From assembly GCA_902614375.1 (NCBI GenBank), contig CACMKZ010000002.1, positions 14,477 to 78,476 on the forward strand: a stretch of 64,000 nt of DNA. Reading direction: 5' to 3'. Under the pieces are notes generated by a model. The model saw only the letters and a list, made by a program, of their open reading frames with translations, made no database searches and had not been told where the DNA came from. Made by a program: the position numbers and the translations under genes. This DNA comes from an uncultured Alphaproteobacteria bacterium. Its GTDB lineage: Bacteria; Pseudomonadota; Alphaproteobacteria; HIMB59; GCA-002718135. Shown here one piece after another: positions 5,693 to 18,516 of the stretch (the first letter of the stretch is position 1; every line of letters starts with the position of its first letter).

Positions 5693-6994
5693 ATGGGAAA
5701 AGGACAAAAATTATATTCAAAAGCAAAGCAAATTGTTGCTGGTGGAAATATGCTTTTATCAAAAAGACCTGAAATGTTTTTACCTGAACATTGGCCTGCT
5801 TATTTTACTAAAACAAGAGGTTGTGAAGTATGGGATCTCGATGGAAATAAATACATAGATACCTTGATGATGCCAGGAACTAATTCACTTGGCTATAGTC
5901 ATCCAGAAGTCGATGAAGCTGTCAAAGAAATAGTTGGGAATGGAAATATGTCTTCCCTAAATGCCCCGGAAGAAGTTGAGCTCACGGAAAGATTAGTTGA
6001 ACTACATCCATGGGCTGATATGGCAAGATTTGCAAGATCAGGAGGTGAAGCTAATTCAGTCGCTATTCGTCTTTCAAGAGCTGCGTCCGGAAGAGATAAT
6101 GTAGCATTTTGTGGATATCATGGCTGGCACGACTGGTACTTAGCTTCAAATTTATCTGACTCAAAAGGGTTAGATGGTCACCTTCTACCAGGTTTAGATC
6201 CTCATGGTGTACCACAAAATCTCAAAGGAAGTGTATATCCATTTGAATATAATAATTTTGATAAACTAGAAAACTTAGTCAAAACTAAAAACATAGGCGT
6301 TATCAAAATGGAAGTTTACCGAAACAAAGAACCAGAAAATAATTTTTTACAAAGAGTTAGAAAATTAGCAAACGATAATAATATTGTTTTAGTATTTGAT
6401 GAATGTACATCAGGATTTAGAAAAAATTATGGTGGCTTGCATATGCTTTATGATGTTGAGCCTGACGTTGCAATGTTTGGAAAAGCTCTTGGAAATGGAT
6501 ATGCTGTAACTGCAGTCCTTGGTAAAAGAGAGGTAATGCAAGCAGCAGAAAAATCTTTTATAAGCAGCACCTTTTGGACTGAACGAATTGGATCTAGTGC
6601 TGGTCTTGCGACACTAAAAGTTATGGATAAAGAAAAATCATGGGAAAAAATTACAAAAATTGGTGAATACGTTAATAGTGAGTGGATGAAGTTATCTAAA
6701 GAATTTGATCTTCCAATTACTATTAGTGGATTAGCGGCACTGACAACATTTTCATTTAAAAGTGAAAATGCATTGGCCTATAAAACATTTATTACTCAAG
6801 AAATGCTTAAAAAAGGTTATCTTGCTGCAACTGCAGTCTATGTTTGTACTGCACACACAAAAGACATCATTGATGGTTACATTGAAAATATACGCCCTAT
6901 TTTTCAAACGATAAAAGAGTGTGAGGATGGAAGAAATATTATGGATTTATTAGAAGGCCCTATTGCACATAATGGTTTTAAACGATTAAACTAA
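5693..6994 (+). CDS. Class III (fold type I) PLP aminotransferase, glutamate-1-semialdehyde-aminomutase-like
   Basis: ORF opens at TTG 5675, but the first ATG at 5693 (MGKGQKLY...) is preferred. Motifs DECTSGFR and PLP-Lys context MFGKALGNG. Length about 430 aa. Confidence 0.8.
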   Translation: MGKGQKLYSKAKQIVAGGNMLLSKRPEMFLPEHWPAYFTKTRGCEVWDLDGNKYIDTLMMPGTNSLGYSHPEVDEAVKEIVGNGNMSSLNAPEEVELTERLVELHPWADMARFARSGGEANSVAIRLSRAASGRDNVAFCGYHGWHDWYLASNLSDSKGLDGHLLPGLDPHGVPQNLKGSVYPFEYNNFDKLENLVKTKNIGVIKMEVYRNKEPENNFLQRVRKLANDNNIVLVFDECTSGFRKNYGGLHMLYDVEPDVAMFGKALGNGYAVTAVLGKREVMQAAEKSFISSTFWTERIGSSAGLATLKVMDKEKSWEKITKIGEYVNSEWMKLSKEFDLPITISGLAALTTFSFKSENALAYKTFITQEMLKKGYLAATAVYVCTAHTKDIIDGYIENIRPIFQTIKECEDGRNIMDLLEGPIAHNGFKRLN

Positions 6995-8478
6995 TCTAAA
7001 GATATAATTTTATTTCCAATTTTTTTAAAAGGCAATCTTTTTAAATTACTTGTGCAAAGACCTTGGCTATCAATATAAAAACTCTGAGATGCAATTGGAT
7101 CATAAGCATCTTTATGAGACACAGCTGCTTTAATTATTATTAATTTTGCATCTCTAGGATTAATACCTTGTGAAGTTAGTTGGCCTAAATCCATTGGTGG
7201 TGTTTTAATTGATGTTAACAATAAGGTTAATTGATCATTTTTTAATACAGCGGAAGGGCCCATATTAATTTTTGTTCCCATCATTGAAGCTAAGTGAGAT
7301 TGTTTATTTTCAAGTTCAAATCTTCCATCAGAAATTCTTTCTAAATTTGCTTTAATAAAAATAGGTTTACCATGAAATACATCAAATTTTGCACCTATAT
7401 GTAGCTGAACTTCATTATTAATATGAGCTTTATGACAAGCATCTGCAGCTTCAGGATCATTAATTATAGCAACGATCCCGTTATGATTAGTTTGTAATAA
7501 TCGATCTAATAAATCAGTAGCATCTCCTGGTGTTCCTCCACCAATATTATCAGCTGGTTCAATTAGTAAAATAGGTTTTTTAATTTCTGTAATATTATCA
7601 ATCACATTTAGAGCCTCATCCAGAGAATTTTCTTTTGGATAACCATCTTTAATTTTTGCTTCTAGTATATTGACCAATTTATCTAGGTAATTTTTTGCAT
7701 CACTAATTTTTCCTCTGGTACAACAATTTATACTAAAACCACAATCTGGAATATCGGCGTATGAATATCCTGCCATAACATTAATGCATATGATCTCTGG
7801 ATCTTTCTTCTCAATTTTTAATGCTTCTTCTAAAATTGTTTTCATTGGATCATTTGCTGTACCGACACCTGTTGGAGGTAAAATATATTTTGTATCCAGA
7901 TGTACTTGTTTTACATTAGGATCTAGAAAAAGGTCGTTTAAAATTGATGCAGCTTTAACTGCTGTTTCTCTAGAATCACTGTGAGGGTTTTTTCTATATG
8001 CATAAACACATGTACTATACTTAATCATATTTTCTGAAACATTGGCGTGTAAATCTAAAACAGCAACAATAGGAATAGATATATTTTCTTTTGATAAAAA
8101 ACTTTGAATATCTCTGAGAAAATCTCCCTCAAAATCATCATGGTTAGTGCTTACCATAGCTCCATGTAAAACTAAGAAAATAGCATCTAGGTTGTGACAA
8201 GAAACTTTTAATTTTTCAAAGAAATTTTTTTTAAAATAGTTTTCTGATTCTTCATCAACAGTACCTGAGGGTCTGGCTGACATTTGAATTCCTGGAATTA
8301 TATTCCAATTTTGACCAGAAGCATATTCTATAAAACCATCTGTTGGAGATCCATTCCCAGTGTTTTCATTAATTATTTCTTCATCATGAAAAATAATAAA
8401 ATCTTTTAAATTAGTTGGTTCACCTAAAAATGTATGGGTTTCATGATATATACCTGAGAGAAAAATATTTTTAGACAT
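6991..8478 (-). CDS. MlrC-like (M81 family) metallopeptidase
   Basis: 495 aa. N-terminal IFLSGIYHETHTF resembles the MlrC/DUF1485 ..G..HETNTF signature, and size fits the two-domain MlrC family. Family recalled from memory, not searched. Confidence 0.7.
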   Translation of the reverse strand: MSKNIFLSGIYHETHTFLGEPTNLKDFIIFHDEEIINENTGNGSPTDGFIEYASGQNWNIIPGIQMSARPSGTVDEESENYFKKNFFEKLKVSCHNLDAIFLVLHGAMVSTNHDDFEGDFLRDIQSFLSKENISIPIVAVLDLHANVSENMIKYSTCVYAYRKNPHSDSRETAVKAASILNDLFLDPNVKQVHLDTKYILPPTGVGTANDPMKTILEEALKIEKKDPEIICINVMAGYSYADIPDCGFSINCCTRGKISDAKNYLDKLVNILEAKIKDGYPKENSLDEALNVIDNITEIKKPILLIEPADNIGGGTPGDATDLLDRLLQTNHNGIVAIINDPEAADACHKAHINNEVQLHIGAKFDVFHGKPIFIKANLERISDGRFELENKQSHLASMMGTKINMGPSAVLKNDQLTLLLTSIKTPPMDLGQLTSQGINPRDAKLIIIKAAVSHKDAYDPIASQSFYIDSQGLCTSNLKRLPFKKIGNKIISLD

Positions 8479-9388
8479 TTAGTATTTCTTCTAATTCATT
8501 ATTTGCATGTATTTTTATTTTTTTTACATCTTCTGCAGTTGCTCCATCATAAGGCCAGAGAACTTTTTCGGAAACTGGTCCCCATCCGCCAACAGAAGCA
8601 AGTAATTTATCTAAACCAGTGTTTGATAATTTATTAGCAAAAGGTAAAATATATTGTTTCATAAAGTTTAGGACTTTAGCTTCTAGTTCTTGTGCTTTTT
8701 CATAATCTTTCTCGATTAAATCCCAAATTTTAACAGCGCCATTTGGACTTAAACATGCAACATTGGAATAAGATCCATTTGCTCCTAAAGGTTTTCCATA
8801 TACAACCGTATGTCCAGGCACAAATACCGAAAAATCATCTAATAATTCTCTTCTTTGTGAGTACCATTGCTCATCACCCCCTGCACATTTAATTCCTACA
8901 AGATTTTGAACAGATTGTTTTAATAATCTAATCTCTTCAAGAGAAAGCAGGACTTTTGCATGAGGAGGATTGTATAAAATCATATAAATATCCTCAACCA
9001 CCTCTTGCATACCTAAAATAAAATTCTTTGACTCATTAAAAGTTGGAGGCCACCAATCTGGTAAGGTAATTTGAAATCCATTTGGTTTTAAACTTACCAT
9101 TCGCTTTGCTCTTTCTTGGCAAACTCTTGGATTAGTATGACTTAAACCAAGTTGAAATTTTTTATTCTTTTTTAATGCAATTGTTGAAACTATTTCCGAT
9201 AATTTATCAAATTCTTGTTCTGTTTGATTATGACATTCTGCAGCTGTACCATTAGTATAGATACCAGAAACTTTGGAGTCACATAAAATATGAATCTGTT
9301 CTTCAAATGCAACCCAGTCAATTTGATCATTATTAATTGGCAAAAGAATAGTTCCCCAAATTCCATTTGGTTTCTCTAGTGTTTTCAT
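8471..9388 (-). CDS. DapA/DHDPS-family class I aldolase-like protein
   Basis: 305 aa. GIYTNGTAAE (cf. G.TGE block) and candidate Schiff-base Lys in VGIKCAGG. More divergent than nanA. 8-nt overlap with the MlrC-like gene. Confidence 0.6.
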   Translation of the reverse strand: MKTLEKPNGIWGTILLPINNDQIDWVAFEEQIHILCDSKVSGIYTNGTAAECHNQTEQEFDKLSEIVSTIALKKNKKFQLGLSHTNPRVCQERAKRMVSLKPNGFQITLPDWWPPTFNESKNFILGMQEVVEDIYMILYNPPHAKVLLSLEEIRLLKQSVQNLVGIKCAGGDEQWYSQRRELLDDFSVFVPGHTVVYGKPLGANGSYSNVACLSPNGAVKIWDLIEKDYEKAQELEAKVLNFMKQYILPFANKLSNTGLDKLLASVGGWGPVSEKVLWPYDGATAEDVKKIKIHANNELEEILNV

Positions 9389-9389
9389 T

Positions 9390-10310
9390 TTAATGTTTAT
9401 GTAATTGATCTTCTGCTTGCTTAATAATATCTACGCCCACTCTATCGCTCCACCCTTGAATCAATTTCTTAGTTACTGGACCAACATTTCCATCAGCAAT
9501 TGGCATTCCATTAAACTTTGTTGCAGGCATTATTGAATATGGAGTACTAGTAATAAACATTTCATCAGAAGTTGCTAAATCATAAGATTGAATAACAGCT
9601 TCGATCACTTCAATGTCTAAAGATCGGGCTATTTCCATTGTTGAATTTCTTGTAAGCCCCTCCAAACAATTAGCAGTGGTTGGTGTAATTAACTTTCCAT
9701 CTTTAATCATAAATATATTACCACCTTTATTTTCTGCAACATTTCCATGAATATCAAGAATGACACTTTGCGCATCAGGATCAACTAATTTAGCTTCAAT
9801 TTCAGCTAACGTGTAAAAAAGACGACTTCTATTTTTAATTCTTGCATCTAAAGATTGTGAAGGCACCATTCTGGTAGGAGGAGTTACTGCATGACAACCT
9901 TTGCTATAAAAAGGAGCCCATGAAACAAGGTTCATAGGTTGAGTGTAAATCATAACAGTTGGCTTAGAGACTTGCAAAGCTGGATTACCTCCAGTGATTG
10001 AATGTCCTCGAGAAATATTATGCACAAGCCAACAATCCTCATTAGCCTTGTAATTATCTTTATTAATTTCTAATAATTCAAGACTAACCTTTTTCATTTC
10101 CTCTATTCTCATTTGAGGGTCAATACGTGTTAATTTAAATGATTTATATAATCTTTCTAAATGCTCATCTAATTTGAATGGTTTGAAATTAAATGTTCTA
10201 GTAGATTCAGTAACTGTATCGCCTAACAGTACTGCGCTATCAAATATTGAAATTTTAGCATCTACTTCTGGTACAATCTCACCAGAAATATAAACTTTTC
10301 TATTGTTCAT
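9390..10310 (-). CDS. Class IV (fold type IV) aminotransferase (branched-chain / D-amino-acid aminotransferase family)
   Basis: 306 aa. ISIFDSAVLLGD, HLERLYKS, GGNIFMIKDGKLITP and CLEGLTR blocks are typical of fold-type IV transaminases. Confidence 0.8.
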   Translation of the reverse strand: MNNRKVYISGEIVPEVDAKISIFDSAVLLGDTVTESTRTFNFKPFKLDEHLERLYKSFKLTRIDPQMRIEEMKKVSLELLEINKDNYKANEDCWLVHNISRGHSITGGNPALQVSKPTVMIYTQPMNLVSWAPFYSKGCHAVTPPTRMVPSQSLDARIKNRSRLFYTLAEIEAKLVDPDAQSVILDIHGNVAENKGGNIFMIKDGKLITPTTANCLEGLTRNSTMEIARSLDIEVIEAVIQSYDLATSDEMFITSTPYSIMPATKFNGMPIADGNVGPVTKKLIQGWSDRVGVDIIKQAEDQLHKH

Positions 10311-10311
10311 T

Positions 10312-11091
10312 TTATAATTTGTTTTTTGATTTTAATTCTGCTTTTAATTGTTCTTGTTCCATTTTCTCTTTCTGCTTGTCGTGTTTTGCAGAAACACCAT
10401 GATAAACAAAACCAAAAGCTCTTCGTGAGCGAGTTTTAGATTTATTGGGATCAGCAAAATGAATAATTTTAGCATGGTGCATTAAAAACATTCCAGCTTT
10501 ACCTTCAAACTTTACAGTATTTTTTTTATCCTCTTCAGTTCCAAAATCAGTTACCCCTTTTGAAAAACCTAAAATTTCTGATTTGCCATGTGGCCTGTAT
10601 CCTTCATATTTATGTGAACCTTTAACATAATGGATACATCCATTTTCATCATCAACATCTTCAAGTGCAAGCCAACCAGTAACAGCTTTATCATTATCTA
10701 AATTAAAATAATAACCATCTTGATGAGGAGGAGTAGGATTGCTTTTACCAGGAGGTTTATTAAAGTATTCCATTGCTCTAGGTATAACATCCTCACCTAA
10801 AGCGTTCGCAGCTAATTCTTTTATTTTACTATTGTGAAATAGATCATGAAAGAAAGCATCGTACTCTTCTAACTTTTGCATTTGCATTAAAGTATCTTTG
10901 TTTTCTTTATCAACGTAATACACTTCCCCTTCTTTCATTTTAGGAACACAGTCTTTAATATATCTATCAAACTCATTATTTATAAGCTCCATATCAGACT
11001 TCGAGAAAAGTTCAGGAATATGATTATAACCATTTTCATCATAAATTTTTTTTAGATCACTTAATTCAGGGGTGTTGGTATTAAAATTCAT
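10312..11091 (-). CDS. PhyH-family Fe(II)/2-oxoglutarate dioxygenase (paralog 1)
   Basis: 259 aa. PTPPHQDGYYF (H-x-D iron ligands), CIHYVKGSHK, and a distal His in LMHHAKIIH. Clear paralog of the adjacent gene. Confidence 0.75.
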   Translation of the reverse strand: MNFNTNTPELSDLKKIYDENGYNHIPELFSKSDMELINNEFDRYIKDCVPKMKEGEVYYVDKENKDTLMQMQKLEEYDAFFHDLFHNSKIKELAANALGEDVIPRAMEYFNKPPGKSNPTPPHQDGYYFNLDNDKAVTGWLALEDVDDENGCIHYVKGSHKYEGYRPHGKSEILGFSKGVTDFGTEEDKKNTVKFEGKAGMFLMHHAKIIHFADPNKSKTRSRRAFGFVYHGVSAKHDKQKEKMEQEQLKAELKSKNKL

Positions 11092-11852
11092 ATAAGATTT
11101 TTCTCCTTCATTTCTTTTCGAAGTTTTTCTTGATAAGCATCATGTGCTTCTTGATTTATTTCTGCGCTTTCTCCATAATAAATAAATCCCAGTGCTTTTC
11201 TAGTTCTTGTTTGAGATTTATTTCCTTCAGCCCAATGTATTGTTTTAGCATTGTGAATTAAAAAAGTTCCTGGCTCTCCAGGAAAAGAGACTGTGTTCTT
11301 TTTATCTTCCTCATTTCCAAAATCAGTAATACCTTGAGAAAAACCTAATACATTGGATCTACCATGAGGCCTATATTCAGATTTATGAGAACCTTTTACA
11401 TAATGAATACATCCATTCTCTTCATCTACTTTTTCTAGAGCTAACCAACAAGTAACGGCATTATGTTTTTTTAACATAAAGTAATAACCATCCTGATGTG
11501 GTGGTGTTGGCTTTCCAATTCCTGGTGGTTTATTAAAAAATTGTAAATTTTTGGGCTCAGCTTTTTCTCGTAAAACTATTTCTGCAACTTCTCTAATAGG
11601 AGATTTTTCAATTAATTCTTTAAAGTAATCATCATAAGTAAACATTTGCTGAAGTTGCTTTATAGAAGTTTTATCATCTTTATTTTCATAAAATATATGA
11701 TGATCAGGTACATTAGGCGTAACTTCTTTAATGTATCTAGATAATTCAATCTTAATCTCTTCTATTTTATCAATTGAAAATAATGGGTTTATTGCAATAT
11801 AGCCGTTGTCATCAAATTTAGATTGAAGATCTTGATTATTAAAAGTTGTCAT
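11088..11852 (-). CDS. PhyH-family Fe(II)/2-oxoglutarate dioxygenase (paralog 2)
   Basis: 254 aa. PTPPHQDGYYF, CIHYVKGSHK, LIHNAKTIH. 4-nt overlap with paralog 1. Confidence 0.75.
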   Translation of the reverse strand: MTTFNNQDLQSKFDDNGYIAINPLFSIDKIEEIKIELSRYIKEVTPNVPDHHIFYENKDDKTSIKQLQQMFTYDDYFKELIEKSPIREVAEIVLREKAEPKNLQFFNKPPGIGKPTPPHQDGYYFMLKKHNAVTCWLALEKVDEENGCIHYVKGSHKSEYRPHGRSNVLGFSQGITDFGNEEDKKNTVSFPGEPGTFLIHNAKTIHWAEGNKSQTRTRKALGFIYYGESAEINQEAHDAYQEKLRKEMKEKNLI

Positions 11853-11865
11853 AATTTAATAAAAT

Positions 11866-11917
11866 TATGGTAACTGAAATTAAAAAGATAGCTAGTAAAA
11901 ATTAATTATTTACCATA
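11866..11917. promoter_or_regulatory. 8-bp inverted repeat TATGGTAA / TTACCATA in divergent promoter spacer
   Basis: Arms at 11866-11873 and 11910-11917, separated by 36 bp, inside the 96-bp spacer between the PhyH pair (-) and the PanB-like pair (+). These are the only GG/CC-containing symmetric elements in that spacer. Confidence 0.25.
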
Positions 11918-11948
11918 TTTTCTTAATTAAATTATAAATCATAAGAGA

Positions 11949-12791
11949 ATGCAAAAAAAATATAAAAGAGTTTTTTCTATAAACAATGATCTAGGATATA
12001 GAAATTATACTGTCAGAGATTTAATAAATTTAAAAGGTAAGAAAAAACTAACACAAGTGAGAGTTACCACAGTTGAAGAAGCTGCCGCTGCTGAAGAAGC
12101 AGGAATTGATTTATTATTAACTGGACCAGGAAAAGATTTTTCAAATATTAGAAAAGCTGCTTCAAAAACTTTTATGACTGTTGGTGTACCTTTTATTGAG
12201 AACCCGTCAAAAAGAGAAGCAACAAAAAAAGCATTCGAAATAATTGAGGCTGGTGCTGATTCACTAATGTGTCAAAATTGGAATCTTGAATGGATGGCAC
12301 ATTTAAGTAAATTTAGAATTCCCTTTCAAAGTCATGTTGGTTTTATTCCAAGAAGAACGACATGGATAGGTGGTATTAAATCTTTTGGAAAGACAGCAAA
12401 TGAAGCTGCAGAATTATTTAGAGATATAAAGGATATTGAGAAAACTGGTGCATGGGGCATAGAAGTAGAACTCGTTCCAGAAAATATTTTAAATGTTATT
12501 ACAAAGCACACATCACTTGTTACTATTTCAATTGGTTCGGGAATAGCTGCGGATGCTCAATTTTTATTTGCCGAAGATATATTAGGACAGAGTAAAATAA
12601 GTTTTCCAAGACATGCAAAAAAATATAAAAATTTTGATAAAATATTACGTGATATTCAAAAAGAAAGAATTGATGCTTTCAAAAAGTATAAAATAGAAGT
12701 TCAAAAAAATAAATTTCCAACAAAAAAACATACTATTTCAATTAAAAAAATAGAATTAAATAAATTTAGAAAGTTTCTGGAACAACATTAA
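11949..12791 (+). CDS. PanB (ketopantoate hydroxymethyltransferase)-family protein, divergent (paralog 1)
   Basis: 280 aa. The C-terminal two thirds are collinear with E. coli PanB (HVGFIPRR, GIEVELVPE, ISIGSG..ADAQFLFAEDILG, PRHAKKY, C-terminal ..FP...H). N-terminal blocks differ: LLTGPGKD for VGDSLG, VGVPF for ADLPF, LMCQNW for VKIEGG. Confidence 0.7.
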   Translation: MQKKYKRVFSINNDLGYRNYTVRDLINLKGKKKLTQVRVTTVEEAAAAEEAGIDLLLTGPGKDFSNIRKAASKTFMTVGVPFIENPSKREATKKAFEIIEAGADSLMCQNWNLEWMAHLSKFRIPFQSHVGFIPRRTTWIGGIKSFGKTANEAAELFRDIKDIEKTGAWGIEVELVPENILNVITKHTSLVTISIGSGIAADAQFLFAEDILGQSKISFPRHAKKYKNFDKILRDIQKERIDAFKKYKIEVQKNKFPTKKHTISIKKIELNKFRKFLEQH

Positions 12792-12793
12792 TT

Positions 12794-13639
12794 ATGAAAA
12801 ATAAATTTAAAAAAGTTTACTCTCTTGCACATCAAGCTGGTTATAGAAACTATACGATTAAAGATTTAATAAATTTAAAAGGTAAGAAAAAATTAACACA
12901 AATAAATGTTATATCTGCTGAAGAAGCTGCAGCTGCAGAAGCTGCTGGTATAGATATGATTATTTGTGGGGTAGATCAGTTAAAAGAAATACGCGAAGCT
13001 GCGCCCAATACATTTTTAACGTGTGGGATAAAATATACTGAGTATGCTTCCAAAGAAAGTATGATGAAAAAAGTATTTGAATTACTTGAAGTCGGTGTAG
13101 ACTCGATACACACCAATTCATGGAATATAAATTTTATTAAATATTTAAGTGAGTTTAATATCCCTTTTCAAGGACATGTAGGTTTTGTTCCAATGAAATC
13201 AACGTGGACAGGGGGTGTAAAACCAGTTGGGAAAAGTTCTGCTGAGGCTATTAAAGTTTATCATGATATAAAAGAATTAGAAAAAATTGGTGCTTGGGCT
13301 GTAGAAGTCGAATGTGTACCAGAGGATGTTTTAAAAGAAATAACAAAAGGTACCAAAGCTTTGACTATTTCAATAGGATCAGGCAGATATGCCGATATTC
13401 AATTTTTGTTCGGTGAAGATATTTTGGGATATCACTTCAATTCAATTAAAACACCCAGACATGCAAAAAAATATAAAGATTTTAATAAGACATACGAAAA
13501 GTTACAAAAGGATAGAATAGATGCTTTTAAAGAATATCAGAAGGATGTAGTAAGTAAGAAATTTCCATCAAAAAATAATGTTGTTTTTGCCGAAAAAAAA
13601 GAGCTAGAAAAATTTAAGAAATTAATAAAAAAAATCTAA
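12794..13639 (+). CDS. PanB-family protein, divergent (paralog 2)
   Basis: 281 aa. HVGFVPMK, AVEVECVPE, ISIGSGRYADIQFLFGEDILG, PRHAKKY. N-terminal blocks IICGVDQL, TCGIKY and IHTNSW replace the canonical PanB metal/substrate motifs. 2-nt spacer after paralog 1. Confidence 0.7.
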   Translation: MKNKFKKVYSLAHQAGYRNYTIKDLINLKGKKKLTQINVISAEEAAAAEAAGIDMIICGVDQLKEIREAAPNTFLTCGIKYTEYASKESMMKKVFELLEVGVDSIHTNSWNINFIKYLSEFNIPFQGHVGFVPMKSTWTGGVKPVGKSSAEAIKVYHDIKELEKIGAWAVEVECVPEDVLKEITKGTKALTISIGSGRYADIQFLFGEDILGYHFNSIKTPRHAKKYKDFNKTYEKLQKDRIDAFKEYQKDVVSKKFPSKNNVVFAEKKELEKFKKLIKKI

Positions 13640-14452
13640 ATGGAAATTAGTAAATTAGTTAGAAGATTAAATGATAATGAAATATCGCAGTATGAAGATA
13701 AGGGTTATATAAAAGGTCTGCCTGTATTTTCTCAAGGTGGTGTTAAAGATCTTCAAAAACTTTTTTTAGATTTAAGTAATAGACTACCCGCAGGCGTTAA
13801 CATAAATAAAACTAATATGTGGCATAAAGCGAGTAAAAAGTTTTATGATTTAGCCCATACGCCTGCTATTCTTGATTATGTGGAGGATCTTTTAGGACCA
13901 AACTTCTTCCTTTGGGGTGGACAATTTTTTTACAAAGCAGCTAAAAGTAAAGGTGTTGTTCCATGGCATCAAGATTCTCAATATTGGCCTTTAAATCCAT
14001 CAAACTCTGTTACAGTTTGGTTAGCTGTATACGATACAGATAAATCTAATTCAGCAATGAAAATAGTATCAGAAAGCCACAAAACAAAAAGATTTTTACA
14101 TAAAATTAATGACGATAAAAATTATGATTTAAATCAAGAAGTATCTAATGATCAAATTGATAAAGAAAAAATAGTATATATGAATTTAAAAGCTGGTGAG
14201 ATTTCTCTTCATTCAGATGCTCTTTTACATGGTTCTGATGCAAACCATTCAAATAATCCTAGATGTGGAATTACTCTAAGATATTCTCCTTCAAATGTTA
14301 AAGCAGATTTATCAGAGTGGCCTTTTTTTTCTGTTCAAATAGCTAGAGGTGAAACAAATCACTCTTTAAATCCTATTGCTCCTATGCCGAGAGGTGAAGC
14401 AACTCCTGTTAAGGGCTTTCAATTTCATCATGAATTTGAAAGTGAGTGGTGA
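13640..14452 (+). CDS. PhyH-family Fe(II)/2-oxoglutarate dioxygenase (third copy, distinct subfamily)
   Basis: 270 aa. VPWHQDSQYWPL (H-x-D), VTVWLAVYD, and a distal His in LHSDALLHGS. Starts directly after the PanB-like stop. Confidence 0.75.
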   Translation: MEISKLVRRLNDNEISQYEDKGYIKGLPVFSQGGVKDLQKLFLDLSNRLPAGVNINKTNMWHKASKKFYDLAHTPAILDYVEDLLGPNFFLWGGQFFYKAAKSKGVVPWHQDSQYWPLNPSNSVTVWLAVYDTDKSNSAMKIVSESHKTKRFLHKINDDKNYDLNQEVSNDQIDKEKIVYMNLKAGEISLHSDALLHGSDANHSNNPRCGITLRYSPSNVKADLSEWPFFSVQIARGETNHSLNPIAPMPRGEATPVKGFQFHHEFESEW

Positions 14453-14482: not shown

Positions 14483-15562
14483 ATGAAAATAATTGATGAA
14501 ATAATTCTATACGAAAACCCTGATCCTTTACTCGTTAGTAAACAAGGTATTTTCCCGGGTATAGTAAAATTACAGGATAATTCCTTACTTGCATTATTTA
14601 CTATTGGGCAAGCTTTTGATTCTGCTGATCAAAGAACATTTGTTTCAAAAAGTTTTGATGATGGAAGAAGTTGGTCTAAACCAAAACCTTTACATAATCA
14701 TAAATATAAAAATAAGGAAGAATCAGAATCTCTTAAACCACTATTATTACAAAATAATAAATTACTGGCAATAGGTTATGCTTTTGTAAGACCAGATAGT
14801 TTAACACCAATTGTTAATCCTAATACATTTGAAATACTGCCGCTCAATAATAAAATAAGTATTTCTAACGATAATGGTGAAAGTTGGTCTATGCCAGAAA
14901 ATTTTAACGTCAATGAAACACCGCTTGAAATATCAGGGCCGTGTATTCAGTTAAAATCAGGTAGAATATTAGGAGCAGCGCCACCTTTCCATTTAAAAGA
15001 GTCAGATCATTCAGGATGGATAATTTATAGTGATGATGAAGGAGAAAATTGGAGTAAACTATCTGAATTTTATAAATCCAAGGAAGGACATATTTCAACT
15101 TGGGAATGTCGATTATGTGAAACGAACAGCAAAATTATTGTTATTTTTTGGGCTTATGACAATAAAAATAAAAAAAATCTTAGCAACCATGTTGTAATTT
15201 CCGATGATGCTGGAAAAACATTTAATACTGTAATTGATACTAAAATTAGAGGACAAGCGTCTAATGTAATGTTTTATAAAGATGATATAATTTTTACCAT
15301 TCATTGTCACAGAGAAAACCCAACGGGATTAATTCTAAGAAAAGTTGATGTCAGAGATAATAAGTTTTCAATTTTAGATGAAATCAATTTGTTTTCTAAA
15401 GATGGTTTATCAAGTGATGATACTAATATAAGTAAACAGTTTGGCTCGCTAAAGTTTGGTCAACCATCAATTCTTCTTTTAAATAACAATGAATTACTAA
15501 TTTGTTTTTGGTGCATTCATGATAACCAACATATTATTAAAACGTATATCGTAAATATTTAG
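14483..15562 (+). CDS. BNR/Asp-box repeat beta-propeller protein (sialidase-like fold, no signal peptide)
   Basis: 359 aa. Four Asp-boxes (SFDDGRSW, SNDNGESW, SDDEGENW, SDDAGKTF). Size matches small 6-bladed sialidases. No N-terminal signal sequence. The canonical (Y/F)RIP motif was not found (GIFPGIV at the equivalent position). Confidence 0.75.
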   Translation: MKIIDEIILYENPDPLLVSKQGIFPGIVKLQDNSLLALFTIGQAFDSADQRTFVSKSFDDGRSWSKPKPLHNHKYKNKEESESLKPLLLQNNKLLAIGYAFVRPDSLTPIVNPNTFEILPLNNKISISNDNGESWSMPENFNVNETPLEISGPCIQLKSGRILGAAPPFHLKESDHSGWIIYSDDEGENWSKLSEFYKSKEGHISTWECRLCETNSKIIVIFWAYDNKNKKNLSNHVVISDDAGKTFNTVIDTKIRGQASNVMFYKDDIIFTIHCHRENPTGLILRKVDVRDNKFSILDEINLFSKDGLSSDDTNISKQFGSLKFGQPSILLLNNNELLICFWCIHDNQHIIKTYIVNI

Positions 15563-15570
15563 TCATCAAT

Positions 15571-16896
15571 ATGTTCAATCTAATATCTAAAGAAAAAGAA
15601 AAAATGAAAGTAATTAATTATTATCATTTTTCAACTGCACTACAAATGTGTGCTGTTATAGGAACAGTTGCAGCCCCTTTAACATTATATTCTGTAGAAT
15701 TAGGATTAGATCCAGATAGAATTGGTATTTTAGGTAGTCTTATGGCTTTTTGCCAAGTTTTAGCTTTAATTAGTATCCCTTTAACTCTTTATTTTGGTAG
15801 TAAGATTTTATCTATTTGGACATTATTTAGCAGGTACATTTTTCTTTTAATTTTTTTAATTGTTCCGTTTTATCAAGATAATTTAACACTTGTTTTCTAC
15901 TTGTTATTTTTTGCAATGCTTATGTTTTCTATTTTACGTTCATTATCTGAAGCTGCATTTGTGCCTTGGATGCAAGAATTTATTCCAAGAGATGTTAGGG
16001 GTAGAGTTATTGGTATTAATGGAATTATCTGTACACCCTTTGCCTTAGTTGCATCATATGGAATAAAAATCTGGTTGGATAGTAGAGAGGGTTTAGAGAG
16101 ATTTTACCCAGTTTTTTTTATAGCAATAATGCTTGGACTAATATCAGCTCTTTTACTTTTAAAATTAAAAGGGGGAAAAAAGATTAAAGGACGAGATGAT
16201 GATCAAGGTTATTTAAAAAATTTACTTAAAGCAACTAAAGATAAAAATTTTAACTTATTTTTAGTTTCATCAGGAACACAATATTTAGTCATTACCATAC
16301 TAGCTATTTTCTTAACTCTCTATTTTAAAATTAGAATGAATATTCCAAGTGGGGAATTAATTTTTTCTTCAACTTTAATTCTAATTGGTGGGACGTGTAG
16401 TGGTTTAGTAGTTGGAAGAGTAACAGATAGTTATGGTTGTAGGGGTATAAGAGTAATATTCCAAAGTCTACAAATAGTACTATTACTTACTTTACCATTT
16501 ATAAATTCTGATACTCCTTACTTAAGCTACGTAATTGGAATAATTTTCTTTCTCTTTGGTTTCTTAATGTGGGGAAGTGCATCAATAGGTTATATTTTTA
16601 TGCTAAACTATGTACCAAGTAATAACAAAGAATCTTTTATGTCACTTGCTTACAGCTTAGATGGAATAACAGCAGGAGTAACAACAGTGCTAGCTGGTTA
16701 TTTAGTTGTTTGGTTAGATAATAATGAGATTATTGTTTTTGACAAATTACTTGGCAGCTATGAAGTTTTATTTGTTATTTGTGCTTTTATTATAGCAATA
16801 TCTATGAATGCTTTTATTCTTATAAGAGAAGAAGGAGCTATGGGAGTTAGGACTTTTTTGAGACAATTAATTTTTTACAGAAAGCAATTACCATAA
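15571..16896 (+). CDS. MFS-type transporter
   Basis: 441 aa (alternative start M12 at 15604). About 12 hydrophobic spans split by a basic central loop (KLKGGKKIKGRDDDQ). No substrate assignment is possible. Confidence 0.7.
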   Translation: MFNLISKEKEKMKVINYYHFSTALQMCAVIGTVAAPLTLYSVELGLDPDRIGILGSLMAFCQVLALISIPLTLYFGSKILSIWTLFSRYIFLLIFLIVPFYQDNLTLVFYLLFFAMLMFSILRSLSEAAFVPWMQEFIPRDVRGRVIGINGIICTPFALVASYGIKIWLDSREGLERFYPVFFIAIMLGLISALLLLKLKGGKKIKGRDDDQGYLKNLLKATKDKNFNLFLVSSGTQYLVITILAIFLTLYFKIRMNIPSGELIFSSTLILIGGTCSGLVVGRVTDSYGCRGIRVIFQSLQIVLLLTLPFINSDTPYLSYVIGIIFFLFGFLMWGSASIGYIFMLNYVPSNNKESFMSLAYSLDGITAGVTTVLAGYLVVWLDNNEIIVFDKLLGSYEVLFVICAFIIAISMNAFILIREEGAMGVRTFLRQLIFYRKQLP

Positions 16897-16900
16897 AATA

Positions 16901-18019
16901 TTATTCAAATTTTAAACGTATCCAATGTAGATCCATTTTTTTATCATTACCCGCATAATAAAAAACTAAAACTTTCCCACTCTGTAAAACATCAGCATAG
17001 GGCAATCCAAAACTCCATATATTCATGTCAGCTAATAACCCTCCTAGCTCTTTACTATTTTGTTTAATTTTTTTTTGATTAAAAATTGTTACCTCAGAAA
17101 TTTCATCAAAATGAGCATTGAGATTATCTGATACTCTTACTTTTATGCTTTGATTTTTAAATCTATCAACCCATGCTAACACTACCTTACCATCCTTTAA
17201 TAATGCAGGATGAGAAGGTTGATCAGAAATATTTAAATCTTTTGGCTGAGACCATGTTTTACCTTCATCATTACTTATTCTTTGATGAATATTAAGGAAA
17301 GTTTTTTTTGCCGAATCATATGTCCATGCAAAAGACGTAATAGTTCCATTTTTATTTACACCACATCTTAAATCCCAATTAAAAATTTTTCCAGTTTCAT
17401 CACCTGCTGCTAAATAAGGTTTAGACCATGTTTTTCCATTATCAGAAGAACATATGAAAATATTTTTTTGATACCATTTTGATTCATCATAATAATCTTT
17501 ATTATTTTCAATACTCATAATTAATTTTCCATTTGGTAATTTCATAATAGGATTGGTAAGACTTGGTGGACCAATGTCTTTAGGTAGCTGAACTTTTCTA
17601 AGTTTTGACCACGTATTCCCATTATCATAAGAATCTGCAATTAGAATTTTCATTGGAAGACAGCCTTCAGTATTAGCATTAAATAATTCTTTTCCTGGAA
17701 TAGAAGTTCGATCGATCCACAATAATGATGCAATAATATGAGAATCAGAAATTTCAGTTAAATAGCAAAGTTTTAGACTGCCTTTAAGATTATCTATTTT
17801 AACATTTTTAAAAGGCTCCCAAGGTTCTGACCATTTCTCACCTTCATCATCTGATCGAAAAAACTCTATTCCCTCTAATTCAGAATCTTTATTATTTCCA
17901 CCTCTTGCAGTGGCAAGAATAGATCCATTACTAAGAGAAACAAATGATGAAAAAGTATAGCATGCTTTATTTGAATCAATTTTTGCAGAACATAAGATGC
18001 CTGAAGAATCTATTTTCAT
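16901..18019 (-). CDS. BNR/Asp-box repeat beta-propeller protein (sialidase-like fold, no signal peptide)
   Basis: 372 aa. Four Asp-boxes (SDDEGEKW, SYDNGNTW, SSDNGKTW, SNDEGKTW). No signal peptide. The RIP position reads YTFSSFV. Confidence 0.75.
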   Translation of the reverse strand: MKIDSSGILCSAKIDSNKACYTFSSFVSLSNGSILATARGGNNKDSELEGIEFFRSDDEGEKWSEPWEPFKNVKIDNLKGSLKLCYLTEISDSHIIASLLWIDRTSIPGKELFNANTEGCLPMKILIADSYDNGNTWSKLRKVQLPKDIGPPSLTNPIMKLPNGKLIMSIENNKDYYDESKWYQKNIFICSSDNGKTWSKPYLAAGDETGKIFNWDLRCGVNKNGTITSFAWTYDSAKKTFLNIHQRISNDEGKTWSQPKDLNISDQPSHPALLKDGKVVLAWVDRFKNQSIKVRVSDNLNAHFDEISEVTIFNQKKIKQNSKELGGLLADMNIWSFGLPYADVLQSGKVLVFYYAGNDKKMDLHWIRLKFE

Positions 18020-18030
18020 TTAATAAAATT

Positions 18031-18516
18031 TTATTTTTTTTTCTTAGGCCATCCCATTAAAAGTTTGGCATTTTTTTCTTCTTCAATAGCCTTTTCTTTA
18101 TCTTTAAAAATTTTCACTACGCATTGAGGTTTATTACGATCAATTACATCATAAACTAGATGGTGATCTACTTTATCAATAAGTGGGCCTATCCAACCAG
18201 CACAATGATCGCAGTATCTTTTCATAGGCTCTGCATCATTATCCAAAACTTTACTAAGACTTGGACAAACATTCATTCTTAATTCTAATTTTTCGTCATC
18301 TAATTTTAAATCCATATCACAGTTTTCTTCAATTCTAATATGATCCCAGTATTCATACATCCCCTTCAAACCTTTTTCTTTGAATAACTTTAAAGTATGT
18401 TTTTCTTGATTTTTACTGATTTCCAACCAGTAAGCCTCTAGATGTTCTTCTCCTTGATCTTCGAGAAACTTAAAAACTTCGTTATAGAAACGGGTAAAAT
18501 GATCACTAGGTATCAT
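18031..18516 (-). CDS. Hypothetical small protein with conserved C-x17-C-x29-C pattern (paralog B)
   Basis: ORF runs to 18543, but the ATG at 18516 (MIPSDHF...) gives an ATGA overlap with the upstream stop and is preferred. Cys in NVCPSL, RYCDHC and PQCVV. No family recognised with confidence. Confidence 0.5.
   Translation of the reverse strand: MIPSDHFTRFYNEVFKFLEDQGEEHLEAYWLEISKNQEKHTLKLFKEKGLKGMYEYWDHIRIEENCDMDLKLDDEKLELRMNVCPSLSKVLDNDAEPMKRYCDHCAGWIGPLIDKVDHHLVYDVIDRNKPQCVVKIFKDKEKAIEEEKNAKLLMGWPKKKK

What the first reader, a model, noticed from the sequence alone, without database searches (positions are those of the whole stretch)
10312..14452. Divergent cluster of three PhyH dioxygenases and two tandem PanB-like proteins that appear to have lost all PanB metal ligands
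Seen in sequence: two paralogous PhyH genes on the minus strand (4-nt overlap) face two paralogous PanB-family genes on the plus strand (2-nt spacer) across a 96-bp spacer. A third PhyH gene starts directly after the PanB pair. Both PanB-like proteins keep the C-terminal PanB blocks (HVGF.P, .EVE.VPE, ISIGSG...QFLF.EDILG, PRHAKKY). Where E. coli PanB has GDS, ADLPF and KIEGG, they read GPG/GVD, VGVPF/CGIKY and MCQNW/HTNSW. A segment of about 20 aa after the first block is missing. Established knowledge: in PanB these N-terminal acidic residues and the Lys/Glu block form the Mg2+ and substrate site. PanB belongs to the PEP-mutase/isocitrate-lyase superfamily of 2-oxoacid C-C enzymes. PhyH-family enzymes hydroxylate diverse small molecules, including amino acids, ectoine and 2-aminoethylphosphonate. 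Inference: this is a neofunctionalised or non-catalytic PanB lineage working with Fe/2OG hydroxylases on an unknown substrate. I cannot map this combination onto any described pathway.
Basis: partly seen in the sequence, partly recalled or inferred. Interest (0 to 1): 0.68.

Follow-up and report, generated by a model that had tools for sequence, protein, structure and literature searches.

The report
PanB-like proteins paired with oxygenases
A SAR11 gene cluster pairs three iron/2-oxoglutarate hydroxylases with two copies of a widespread PanB relative, mis-annotated as PanB, that lacks PanB's magnesium site. In two thirds of the sampled loci from distant bacteria this relative sits beside methyl-attacking oxygenases, which suggests (untested) a folate-linked way of capturing the one-carbon units released by demethylation.

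Summary
Gene layout, overlaps, spacers, paralogy and the motif substitutions are all as described. The window is SAR11 (Pelagibacteraceae). The ten-gene divergent cluster is syntenic in more than 20 single-cell genomes, and the five core genes are under purifying selection.

The two PanB-like proteins belong to a large subfamily (thousands of sequences in SAR11, rhizobia, Chloroflexota, Actinomycetota and others) that public sources name PanB. In this subfamily E. coli D84 is Gly, K112 is Tyr/His/Met, E114 is deleted, and in most members a ~20-aa loop is gone. H136, E181 and the C-terminal blocks are invariant, and new invariant residues appear (a Glu two residues before E181; Arg-His in PRHAK). 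This argues for a neofunctionalised protein, not a dead one.

The key result is context. Oxygenase genes of three unrelated families (PhyH, FA_hydroxylase, MocD-type FA_desaturase with Rieske ferredoxin and reductase) pile up within 3 kb of PanB-like genes and are absent beyond 5 kb. In rhizobia the gene closes a mocDEF-like operon and is often followed by purU.

My best reading (about 45%, no biochemistry) is a folate-dependent acceptor of the C1 unit released by oxidative demethylation. I found no published assignment.

The parts
10312..11091 (-). PhyH_A, a PhyH-family Fe(II)/2-oxoglutarate dioxygenase (259 aa). Putative facial triad H123/D125/H211.
   Evidence: ORF. PF05721 115.5 bits. HxD...H motif. 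dN/dS 0.02-0.06.
11088..11852 (-). PhyH_B, a paralogue of PhyH_A (52% identical, 254 aa). Putative triad H119/D121/H206. First gene of the minus-strand operon.
11853..11948 (.). 96-bp AT-rich divergent intergenic spacer, the presumed promoter/operator region for both operons. It carries an 8-bp inverted repeat, TATGGTAA (11866-11873) and TTACCATA (11910-11917).
   Evidence: Sequence. The left arm and a central ATCTAGTAAAA are kept in related SAGs, but the right arm is not always kept. No Rfam family reached its gathering score.
11949..12791 (+). PanBL1, a short-loop PanB-like protein (280 aa). The Mg2+/keto-acid ligand positions are replaced (P60, G61, G79, M107, Q109). It keeps H129 and E174 (Ec H136, E181) and has the subfamily residues E172, D202, R221 and H222.
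   Evidence: AF2 model pLDDT 89.7. PanB is the only close PDB fold. dN/dS 0.10-0.19.
12794..13639 (+). PanBL2, a tandem paralogue (53% identical, 281 aa). It has V60/D61, G78, H106 and N108 at the lost ligand positions, and keeps H128, E171, E173, D201, R222 and H223.
   Evidence: dN/dS 0.07-0.16.
13640..14452 (+). PhyH_C, a third and distant PhyH-family dioxygenase (270 aa). Putative triad H110/D112/H197.
14483..16896 (+). Rest of the plus-strand operon: a BNR/sialidase-like beta-propeller protein (14483-15562) and an MFS transporter (15571-16896). The intergenic gaps are 30 and 8 nt.
   Evidence: Syntenic in SAR11 SAGs. Divergent relatives also place a transporter beside the PhyH and PanB-like genes.
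6991..10310 (-). Rest of the minus-strand operon, downstream of PhyH_A: a class IV aminotransferase (9390-10310), a DHDPS-family lyase (8471-9388) and an MlrC/M81 peptidase-like protein (6991-8478). The genes overlap or lie 1 nt apart.
   Evidence: Syntenic.

Best explanation
The cluster is a catabolic module. Its three PhyH-type Fe(II)/2-oxoglutarate oxygenases hydroxylate methyl groups (O-, N- or possibly C-methyl) of an imported substrate that is still unidentified, possibly a methylated amino sugar, sugar acid or cyclitol. The two PanB-like proteins, perhaps as a heteromer, take the resulting one-carbon unit onto tetrahydrofolate as 5,10-methylene-THF.

PanB normally moves a hydroxymethyl group between methylene-THF and a Mg2+-bound 2-oxo acid. 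This lineage has discarded the Mg2+/2-oxo-acid half of the site (D45, S46, D84, K112, E114) and kept the other half (H136, E181, the GxGxG...D...Q.L...D blocks, the PKFAK-like block). I therefore propose that it runs only the folate half-reaction. The C1 donor would be free formaldehyde or the oxygenase-made hemiacetal/hemiaminal. A less likely donor is a hydroxymethyl group removed by retro-aldol cleavage. The methylene-THF is then oxidised for energy (FolD, then PurU or formate dehydrogenase) instead of escaping as toxic formaldehyde.

Shown: the residue pattern, the fold, purifying selection, and the cross-phylum adjacency to oxygenases. Inferred: methyl hydroxylation, folate binding, C1 capture, the heteromer, and the substrate.
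For: 1. Ligand loss is subfamily-wide and selective. Across 52 diverse members, Ec D84 is Gly in 48, K112 is Tyr 42/His 7/Met 2, and E114 is deleted in 41. H136, E181 and D209 are kept in 52/52. New invariant residues are Glu at Ec179, Arg at Ec228 and His at Ec229.

2. The fold is still PanB. The AF2 model has pLDDT 89.7. PanB structures are the only close PDB hits, with TM 0.58-0.72. The top hits are 3vav_H and 1m3u_A, at 20-26% identity.

3. Census of 93 non-redundant loci. Catalytic oxygenase genes (PhyH, FA_hydroxylase, FA_desaturase) occur at 2.24 per 10 kb within 1.5 kb of the PanB-like gene, 1.02 at 1.5-3 kb, 0.12 at 3-5 kb, and 0 in 255 kb beyond 5 kb. Of 43 loci with adequate flanks, 29 have an oxygenase component within 1.7 kb.

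4. The partner oxygenases are mechanistically unrelated, so what they share is chemistry (C-H hydroxylation), not a protein interface:
- PhyH: L030, L031, L035, L078, L091, L094-L097, L103, L113.
- FA_hydroxylase: L022, L033, L039, L051, L053-L055.
- MocD-like with Rieske ferredoxin and reductase: L034, L036-L038, L041, L042, L093, L104, L108-L111, L115, L116, L118, L120.
- In L111/L115, two PanB-like genes are interleaved with three oxygenase genes.

5. In Rhizobium and Sinorhizobium the operon is LacI | mocD-mocE-mocF-like - PanB-like - purU (ACT + Formyl_trans_N). R. etli annotators named the neighbours mocD/mocEa/mocFa. In Aestuarium the operon adjoins a rhizopine-binding-protein-type ABC system, inositol 2-dehydrogenase and iolC. 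From my own knowledge (Bahar et al. 1998): MocDEF is the genetically assigned remover of the O-methyl group of 3-O-methyl-scyllo-inosamine. moc gene roles are summarised in PMC10107442. Also from my own knowledge (Chlumsky et al. 1995): purU beside demethylating oxidases is a classic mark of folate-linked C1 disposal.

6. PanB chemistry is compatible. Some PanB variants condense free formaldehyde with the keto acid, and the methylene-THF reaction is reversible (PMC7073904).

7. SAR11 oxidises C1 units through THF, and its formaldehyde-to-THF step is drawn as spontaneous (PMC3160333).

8. One PanB-like gene lies ~1.7 kb from folP-folK (L125). This is a single anecdote.
Against: - There is no direct evidence that any member binds folate. 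No PanB-folate structure was among the PDB hits, so 'the folate half is kept' is an inference from what is conserved.
- No folate C1 gene lies in the SAR11 cluster itself. The only Formyl_trans_N hit in the window is a PurN-sized gene inside the purine cluster.
- purU adjacency was seen in only three loci, all of the mocDEF-like type. Two are rhizobial genomes and one is an unassigned metagenome contig.
- About one third of loci with good flanks lack any of the five oxygenase components. Their neighbours include Zn-ADH, GMC oxidoreductase, PfkB kinase, formamidase and SDRs, or nothing telling.
- Retention of the proposed general base E181 together with H136 fits enolate/carbonyl chemistry on a new substrate at least as well as formaldehyde capture.
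- 21 of 52 members have Asp or Glu at or near the D45 position, and a new Glu pair (ExE) exists. A rebuilt metal site therefore cannot be excluded.
- From memory: the classical S. meliloti L5-30 moc locus is described without such a gene, so the protein would be an accessory and not essential.
Confidence: 0.45

Rival explanations
1. The PanB-like proteins act on the carbon skeleton of the oxygenase substrate or product without folate. They could be an isomerase, epimerase, aldolase/lyase or dehydratase using a rebuilt active site (H129, E172, E174, D202, R221, H222), possibly with a different metal.
For: The invariant new acidic/His/Arg residues sit at positions expected at the C-terminal barrel rim. 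The PEP-mutase/isocitrate-lyase superfamily is rich in C-C lyases, and weak Foldseek hits to phosphonomutases, methylisocitrate lyase and petal death protein appear. Contexts are full of sugar/cyclitol catabolic enzymes: GFO/IDH/MocA, SDR, AP_endonuc_2, DHDPS-like, IlvD/EDD and PfkB. Some loci have no oxygenase at all.
Against: This does not explain why the gene tracks three unrelated oxygenase families more tightly than any dehydrogenase or isomerase. It does not explain why it follows mocF and precedes purU in the rhizobial operons. Nor does it explain why exactly the keto-acid-binding half of the PanB site was lost while the rest was frozen.
Confidence: 0.3
2. The PanB-like proteins are non-catalytic. 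They would be a scaffold, chaperone, effector-binding or regulatory subunit for the oxygenases or for the pathway.
For: All four canonical Mg2+/substrate ligands are lost. The window copies deviate further from the subfamily consensus Tyr-Cys, reading Met-Cys and His-Thr. Tandem paralogues often include a degenerate subunit.
Against: About 30 invariant positions across 52 members as little as 34% identical to PanBL1 include the catalytic-type residues H136 and E181 plus new charged residues. dN/dS is 0.07-0.19. The partners belong to unrelated protein families, soluble and membrane-bound, so a conserved physical interface is unlikely.
Confidence: 0.08
3. They are ordinary PanB enzymes (3-methyl-2-oxobutanoate hydroxymethyltransferase) for pantothenate synthesis, as public sources name them.
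For: PF02548 is the only Pfam hit. NCBI and JGI source names say PanB.
Against: The NCBIfam panB equivalog scores 95 against a cut-off of 207.55. D45, D84, K112 and E114 are all replaced, although canonical KPHMT strictly requires a divalent metal (PMC13488298). A canonical PanB with every ligand exists in another Pelagibacteraceae genome (L029). No pan gene lies nearby. The gene is duplicated inside a catabolic cluster.
Confidence: 0.02

Closest known systems
Ketopantoate hydroxymethyltransferase PanB (EC 2.1.2.11; PF02548; PDB 1M3U, 1OY0, 3VAV)
   Same: Same fold and family: TM 0.58-0.72 and 20-26% identity across the PanB chains. The proteins keep H136, E181, the GxGxG...D.Q.L...D blocks and the C-terminal FP..H helix region.
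   Different: D45, S46, D84 and K112 are replaced and E114 is replaced or deleted. A ~20-aa loop after beta2 is missing. New invariant residues are Glu at Ec179 and Arg-His at Ec228/229. Scores fall below the panB equivalog cut-off. The context is catabolic and oxygenase-linked, not pantothenate biosynthesis.
MocDEF rhizopine (3-O-methyl-scyllo-inosamine) demethylating oxygenase system of rhizobia
   Same: Orthologues of the window's PanB-like proteins are the fourth gene of mocD-mocE-mocF-like operons under LacI control, next to inositol-catabolic and rhizopine-binding-protein-type transport genes.
   Different: The window has no MocDEF; soluble PhyH dioxygenases take that place. From memory, the classical moc locus is described without a PanB-like gene. 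MocDEF's demethylase role is genetic inference, not biochemistry.
Folate-coupled demethylating enzymes with a GcvT-type THF domain (dimethylglycine/sarcosine dehydrogenase, heterotetrameric sarcosine oxidase, TMAO demethylase Tdm, DmdA)
   Same: The proposed logic is the same: an oxidative or lytic demethylation whose formaldehyde equivalent is trapped on THF instead of released (PMC13619132 and PMC4769866, abstracts). purU lies beside the demethylase genes, as in sarcosine oxidase operons (own knowledge).
   Different: The putative folate-binding partner has a PanB TIM-barrel fold, not a GcvT fold. It is a separate polypeptide. The oxidising partners are non-haem iron oxygenases, not flavoproteins or Zn/Fe Tdm. 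Folate binding is untested here.
Formaldehyde-activating enzymes Fae (H4MPT) and Gfa (glutathione)
   Same: Under the most novel reading, the role is the same: enzymatic condensation of formaldehyde with a C1 carrier, a step long assumed to be spontaneous (PMC7073904; PMC3160333).
   Different: Different folds and carriers. According to the papers read, no THF-specific formaldehyde-activating enzyme is known. The activity is not shown for this family.
Cytochrome P450 6-O-methyl-D-galactose demethylase system of marine Bacteroidota
   Same: Oxidative demethylation of a methylated sugar within a polysaccharide-utilisation context, which creates a formaldehyde-disposal problem (PMC9400963, abstract). 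Divergent PanB-like/PhyH pairs sit beside GH127, GH51 and SASA genes.
   Different: The oxygenase class is different. There, formaldehyde is detoxified by a separate pathway and not by a dedicated neighbouring folate protein.

Membership tests
Canonical PanB / KPHMT (EC 2.1.2.11) | Significant match to the family profile (Pfam PF02548) | tested here: met
   128.4 and 130.5 bits against a cut-off of 28.7, but only profile positions ~67-258 align.
Canonical PanB / KPHMT (EC 2.1.2.11) | Score above the curated equivalog cut-off (NCBIfam TIGR00222 / NF001452) | tested here: not met
   TIGR00222: 95.5 and 94.4 bits against 207.55. NF001452: 118.1 and 113.5 bits against 272.
Canonical PanB / KPHMT (EC 2.1.2.11) | Mg2+ ligands Asp45 and Asp84, with Glu114 via water (E. 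coli numbering; ligand identities from my knowledge of von Delft et al. 2003) | tested here: not met
   PanBL1 has P60, G79 and Q109. PanBL2 has a gap/V60 (with D61 one residue later), G78 and N108. In the subfamily, Gly replaces D84 in 48/52 members and E114 is deleted in 41/52. Canonical enzymes depend on a divalent metal (PMC13488298).
Canonical PanB / KPHMT (EC 2.1.2.11) | Substrate-carboxylate binders Ser46 and Lys112 | tested here: not met
   G61/V60 and M107/H106 in the window proteins. The subfamily has Tyr 42, His 7 and Met 2 at the K112 position.
Canonical PanB / KPHMT (EC 2.1.2.11) | His136 and the proposed general base Glu181 | tested here: met
   H129/H128 and E174/E173. Both are invariant in 52/52 subfamily members.
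Canonical PanB / KPHMT (EC 2.1.2.11) | Use of 5,10-methylene-THF as the C1 donor/acceptor | not testable with these tools
   No folate-bound PanB structure appeared among the PDB hits.
Canonical PanB / KPHMT (EC 2.1.2.11) | Pantothenate-pathway context (panC/panD/panE) or a single housekeeping copy | tested here: not met
   The neighbours are catabolic genes. Two tandem copies are present. A canonical PanB exists in another Pelagibacteraceae genome (L029).
PhyH family Fe(II)/2-oxoglutarate dioxygenases (PF05721) | Profile match above the gathering score | tested here: met
   115.5, 107.6 and 96.8 bits against 22. No NCBIfam equivalog is reached; the best is 54.9 bits against a cut-off of 226.3.
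PhyH family Fe(II)/2-oxoglutarate dioxygenases (PF05721) | 2-His-1-carboxylate facial triad (HxD...H) | tested here: met
   H123/D125/H211, H119/D121/H206 and H110/D112/H197 align across the three window proteins and four PhyH genes found next to PanB-like genes elsewhere.
PhyH family Fe(II)/2-oxoglutarate dioxygenases (PF05721) | 2-oxoglutarate turnover and hydroxylation of a defined substrate | not testable with these tools
   This needs biochemistry.
PEP mutase / isocitrate lyase superfamily | (beta/alpha)8 barrel of the superfamily | tested here: met
   The AF2 model shows eight beta/alpha units. Foldseek finds PanB first, then phosphonomutase-like proteins, methylisocitrate lyase and petal death protein at E ~1e-5 to 1e-6.
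PEP mutase / isocitrate lyase superfamily | Divalent-metal site formed by acidic residues after beta2, beta3 and beta4 | tested here: not met
   All three positions are non-acidic in PanBL1. In PanBL2, D61 may be a shifted beta2 residue.
Folate-coupled oxidative demethylation systems | An oxidising enzyme that converts a methyl group into a formaldehyde equivalent | tested here: inconclusive
   Oxygenases of three families are the dominant neighbours. Only the MocDEF type has a (genetic) demethylase assignment, which I know from the literature (for the moc genes). The reaction of the window's PhyH proteins is unknown.
Folate-coupled oxidative demethylation systems | A THF-binding component that accepts the C1 unit | not testable with these tools
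   This is inferred from descent from a methylene-THF enzyme and from selective retention of the non-keto-acid half of the site. There are no binding data.
Folate-coupled oxidative demethylation systems | Neighbouring folate C1-oxidation genes (purU, folD and similar) | tested here: inconclusive
   purU directly follows the PanB-like gene in L034, L037 and L093. It is absent from the SAR11 cluster. folD and metF were not searched for, because I had no seed sequences.

The most novel reading that the evidence does not exclude
The short-loop PanB-like family is a tetrahydrofolate-specific formaldehyde-activating (formaldehyde:THF condensing or hydroxymethyl-accepting) enzyme, an activity so far assumed to be spontaneous. 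It would be recruited repeatedly as the C1-harvesting partner of non-haem iron oxygenases that demethylate methyl sugars, methyl cyclitols and related compounds. In SAR11 this would make methylated carbohydrates of marine dissolved organic matter a source of folate-bound C1 units for energy.
Probability: 0.3. Interest if true: 0.85.

Novelty: new variant of a known kind. Interest (0 to 1): 0.66.

Why it matters
1. Thousands of genes in public databases are named 3-methyl-2-oxobutanoate hydroxymethyltransferase yet cannot be PanB. Some are very abundant SAR11 genes: single 90%-identity clusters hold 653 and 902 member sequences. Metabolic reconstructions that credit them with pantothenate synthesis are wrong.

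2. The family is a strong genomic marker for oxygenase-based attack on small methylated or alkylated nutrients. It occurs in the ocean's most abundant heterotroph, in rhizobia (mocDEF-like operons on symbiotic megaplasmids) and in polysaccharide degraders.

3. If the protein captures C1 units on THF, it fills a recognised gap. No enzyme is known for formaldehyde + THF condensation, a step that matters for natural methylovory in SAR11 and for synthetic methylotrophy.

4. It gives a concrete, testable entry point. The rhizobial orthologues are in genetically tractable organisms, and O-methyl-inositols are candidate substrates.

Tried and rejected
- **Rfam.** A whole-window scan found no riboswitch or other RNA family, including in the 96-bp spacer.
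- **Spacer inverted repeat.** TATGGTAA/TTACCATA is exact only in the closest SAGs, so I did not pursue it as an operator.
- **'PurU' hit in the window.** The hit at 52139-52708 is a 189-aa PurN-sized gene inside the purine cluster, so I rejected it as C1-disposal evidence.
- **Literature.** Nine searches (PanB-like paralogues, SAR11 + PhyH, mocDEF, pinitol demethylation, formaldehyde/THF, PF02548) found no paper that assigns this subfamily. Subscription-only literature is not covered.
- **S. meliloti Rm41 pSymB.** The record carries no annotation, so no locus tags were available to look up.
- **Clustering.** Single-linkage clustering of PanB-like sequences at 65% identity merged most of them and was too coarse for counting independent lineages. 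I used distance-binned gene densities and a locus count after dropping near-identical SAR11 copies instead.
- **L029 translation.** My first translation used the wrong frame. I redid it with the ORF listing.
- **Link to the adjacent aminotransferases.** I considered that the PanB-like proteins might act on 2-oxo acids made by them. I rejected this as the core link because only the oxygenase (plus a transporter) stays adjacent across distant taxa.

Full report
**Observation**

The ORF map reproduces the finding exactly.
- PhyH_A is 10312-11091(-). PhyH_B is 11088-11852(-). They overlap by 4 nt.
- A 96-bp spacer follows.
- PanBL1 is 11949-12791(+). PanBL2 is 12794-13639(+). The gap is 2 nt.
- PhyH_C, 13640-14452(+), starts on the next base.

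Pfam places the three dioxygenases in PF05721 (97-116 bits). It places the two others in PF02548 (128 and 130 bits), but only from profile position ~67 onward. NCBIfam's panB equivalog scores 95 bits against a cut-off of 207.55.

PanBL1 and PanBL2 are 53% identical. PhyH_A and PhyH_B are 52% identical, and PhyH_C is a distant third. All three PhyH proteins keep an HxD...H triad.

Short intergenic distances indicate two divergent operons:
- Minus strand: PhyH_B, PhyH_A, class IV aminotransferase, DHDPS-like lyase, MlrC/M81-like protein.
- Plus strand: PanBL1, PanBL2, PhyH_C, BNR protein, MFS transporter.

**Source and conservation**

Relatives at 90-99% identity are single-cell genomes of Pelagibacteraceae or 'uncultured Alphaproteobacteria'. 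The whole neighbourhood is syntenic in more than 20 of them. Pairwise dN/dS for the five genes is 0.02-0.19. These are real, maintained genes.

**What the PanB-like proteins are**

I aligned them to E. coli PanB.

| E. coli PanB | PanBL1 | PanBL2 |
|---|---|---|
| D45/S46 | P60/G61 | gap/V60 (D61 aligns with Ec L47) |
| D84 | G79 | G78 |
| K112 | M107 | H106 |
| E114 | Q109 | N108 |

About 20 residues after beta2 are missing.

This is not a SAR11 oddity. A profile search of 1.84 billion representatives gave 3380 hits, 105 of them below 1e-30. Word-indexed searches gave thousands more, from Sinorhizobium, Rhizobium, Ensifer, Kineosporia, Caldilineaceae, Stellaceae and many metagenomes. Where a source names them, it calls them PanB.

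Across 52 diverse members:
- D84 is Gly in 48.
- K112 is Tyr 42, His 7, Met 2.
- E114 is deleted in 41.
- The D45 position is variable (Pro 13, Asp 11, Glu 10).
- H136, E181 and D209 are invariant.
- New invariant residues appear: Glu at Ec179 (giving an ExE motif), Arg-His at Ec228/229 (PRHAK), and Asp at Ec109 in 51 of 52.

Intermediate forms keep the long loop, and one keeps KIEG, while lacking the aspartates (P0154, P0161, P0213, P0216). This suggests stepwise loss.

A canonical PanB with every ligand is present in another Pelagibacteraceae genome (L029). The PanB-like genes therefore appear to be extra copies, not replacements.

The AF2 model of PanBL1 is confident (pLDDT 89.7). It is a (beta/alpha)8 barrel with an added N-terminal hairpin and a disordered loop at residues 135-141. 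PanB structures are the only close PDB matches, at TM 0.58-0.72. No member of the subfamily has a solved structure.

**Genomic context across taxa (the main new evidence)**

Distant relatives, 37-43% identical and from non-SAR11 contigs, again sit next to PhyH:
- L030: PhyH, SSF transporter, PanB-like, beside GH51 and DUF4185.
- L031/L032: MFS, PhyH, PanB-like, beside GH127 and SASA.
- L035 (Caldilineaceae): PhyH, GFO, PanB-like.

Other SAR11 loci pair the gene with FA_hydroxylase (L022, L033).

In Sinorhizobium fredii, Rhizobium anhuiense and a Stellaceae MAG the order is LacI | FA_desaturase-like, Rieske ferredoxin, ferredoxin reductase, PanB-like. In the first two, purU (ACT + Formyl_trans_N) follows. 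R. etli CIAT 652 annotators named those neighbours mocD, mocEa and mocFa. In Aestuarium the same unit adjoins a rhizopine-binding-protein-type ABC system, inositol 2-dehydrogenase and iolC. Homologues lie on 279 plasmids or megaplasmids, mostly rhizobial.

I then fetched 80 metagenome loci and scored neighbours with HMMs built from the seeds above. After I dropped near-identical SAR11 copies, 93 loci remained.

| Distance from PanB-like gene | Catalytic oxygenase genes per 10 kb |
|---|---|
| within 1.5 kb | 2.24 |
| 1.5-3 kb | 1.02 |
| 3-5 kb | 0.12 |
| beyond 5 kb (255 kb sampled) | 0 |

- 29 of 43 loci with at least 1.5 kb on both sides have an oxygenase component within 1.7 kb.
- Of the twelve database look-ups, nine showed an oxygenase neighbour and three did not.
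- Striking cases are L111/L115 (MocD, reductase, Rieske, PanB-like, MocD, PanB-like, FA_hydroxylase) and L104 (PanB-like followed by a 760-aa FA_desaturase-Rieske-FNR fusion).
- Transport genes nearby are mostly of the ribose/inositol/rhizopine-binding type, or MFS, SSF or TRAP.
- Loci without these oxygenases show Zn-ADH, GMC oxidoreductase, PfkB kinase, formamidase or SDRs, or nothing telling. One lies 1.7 kb from folP-folK.

**Mechanistic inference**

The three partner families share no fold, cofactor supply or cellular location. One is Fe/2OG. The other two carry the membrane di-iron oxygenase Pfam domains, and their redox partners differ between loci: Rieske ferredoxin plus reductase in most, none nearby in others. 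What they share is hydroxylation of unactivated C-H bonds, notably of methyl groups.

From my own knowledge (Bahar et al. 1998), MocDEF is the system genetically assigned to removing the O-methyl group of the rhizopine 3-O-methyl-scyllo-inosamine. PMC10107442 summarises the moc genes.

Hydroxylating an O- or N-methyl group gives a hemiacetal or hemiaminal that releases formaldehyde. PanB's own reaction moves exactly that unit between methylene-THF and an enolate held on Mg2+. It is reversible, and some PanBs accept free formaldehyde (PMC7073904).

A PanB that has lost the keto-acid/Mg2+ half of the site but frozen the rest is therefore a natural candidate for a folate-side C1 acceptor. purU immediately downstream in rhizobia fits oxidation of that C1 unit to formate. 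From my own knowledge (Chlumsky et al. 1995), sarcosine oxidase operons carry purU in the same way.

SAR11 is known to oxidise C1 units through THF. Its formaldehyde-to-THF step is drawn as spontaneous, and slow formaldehyde oxidation in HTCC1062 was ascribed to the lack of an activating enzyme (PMC3160333).

I put this explanation at about 0.45. A variant inside it is retro-aldol removal of an oxygenase-made hydroxymethyl group next to a carbonyl, the literal reverse of the PanB reaction.

The window's substrate is unknown. The neighbours are two aminotransferases, DHDPS-like lyases, an M81 peptidase-like protein, BNR proteins, NanA/NanE/ROK, a NagA-like amidohydrolase and an Opp-type ABC system. 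They hint at a methylated amino sugar, nonulosonic acid or amino-acid conjugate.

**Rivals**

- **Folate-independent enzyme (0.3).** It would act on the sugar or cyclitol skeleton at a rebuilt, possibly metal-binding, site. This fits the retained E181/H136, the new ExE and RH residues and the dehydrogenase-rich contexts. It does not explain the preference for oxygenases or the position of purU.
- **Non-catalytic partner (0.08).** This fits the ligand loss. It clashes with the invariant charged residues, the purifying selection and the diversity of partners.
- **Ordinary PanB (0.02).** The ligand loss, the sub-threshold equivalog scores and the context exclude it.

**Comparison with known systems**

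In family terms these are members of Pfam PF02548 and of the PEP-mutase/isocitrate-lyase superfamily. They fail the defining PanB features: the metal ligands, the carboxylate binders, the equivalog score and the pathway context.

In functional terms the closest analogues are demethylating enzymes that trap formaldehyde on THF through a GcvT-type domain (DMGDH, sarcosine oxidase, Tdm), and the formaldehyde-activating enzymes Fae and Gfa. Here the putative carrier-binding protein has a different fold and is a separate polypeptide.

Nine literature searches, Pfam, NCBIfam and the PDB turned up no functional assignment for the subfamily.

**Limits**

- There is no biochemical evidence of any kind.
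- Folate binding is inferred.
- I could not inspect model coordinates, and two structure libraries were unavailable.
- The neighbour census used five home-made HMMs. It therefore misses other oxygenase classes and did not score folD, metF or fhs.
- The metagenome sample is biased toward marine contigs.

Noticed in passing
window 212-5642 and 14483-20148: The cluster is embedded in what looks like an amino-sugar or nonulosonic-acid catabolic island. It holds Opp-type ABC components (OppC/D/F), a NanA-like DHDPS lyase, NanE, a ROK kinase, two BNR/sialidase-like proteins, an MFS transporter and a NagA-like amidohydrolase. This is unusual content for a streamlined SAR11 genome.
   Followed up: partly
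window 18031-18543(-) and 18513-19013(-): Two small overlapping ORFs (170 and 166 aa) have no Pfam or NCBIfam match. They are weakly paralogous to each other (25% identity over 61 aa, E 7e-7). They are kept in synteny in almost all related SAGs.
   Followed up: partly
window 11866-11873 and 11910-11917: The divergent 96-bp spacer carries an 8-bp inverted repeat, TATGGTAA...TTACCATA. The left arm and a central ATCTAGTAAAA are conserved in related SAGs, but the right arm degenerates in several. It may be an operator or promoter element. No regulator gene is adjacent.
   Followed up: partly
window 36767-43690(-): A two-partner secretion pair: a 1746-aa exoprotein with a TPS secretion domain, FG-GAP repeats and a YDG domain, plus a ShlB/FhaC-type transporter. 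This is a surprisingly large investment for a SAR11 genome.
   Followed up: no
window 20219-27811: A second catabolic block lies next to the island: SDR, RidA, a D-serine-dehydratase-like protein, an HpcH/HpaI aldolase, two more SDRs, two GFO/IDH/MocA oxidoreductases and an RraA-like aldolase. RraA-like genes also occur two genes from PanB-like genes in other SAR11 loci, for example L033.
   Followed up: no
L111 3057-9837 and L115 3056-9837: A metagenome operon with the order MocD-like, ferredoxin reductase, Rieske ferredoxin, PanB-like, MocD-like, PanB-like, FA_hydroxylase. Two PanB-like genes are interleaved with three oxygenase genes.
   Followed up: partly
L104 8803-11085: A 760-aa single polypeptide fuses FA_desaturase, Rieske and FNR (FAD_binding_6 + NAD_binding_1) domains. 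It lies directly downstream of a PanB-like gene, so it is a self-sufficient MocDEF-type oxygenase.
   Followed up: no
protein P0122 (542 aa): A natural tandem fusion of two nearly identical PanB-like domains in one polypeptide. This fits a dimeric functional unit, like the tandem pair in the window.
   Followed up: no
L125 4016-7801: A PanB-like gene (P0398) lies about 1.7 kb downstream of folP (Pterin_bind) and folK (HPPK). This echoes the published panB-folK clustering (PMC4814558). It is a single case.
   Followed up: no
L022 4801-10876: A SAR11-type genome carries three PanB-like genes within 6 kb. They sit together with FA_hydroxylase, a DHDPS-like lyase, an IlvD/EDD-family dehydratase, an SDR, a GlcD-like FAD oxidase and an Ldh_2 dehydrogenase.
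   Followed up: partly
window 33833-34903(+): An N6/N4 DNA methyltransferase with a C-terminal RAMA domain. No restriction-enzyme family was detected among the adjacent ORFs scanned.
   Followed up: no
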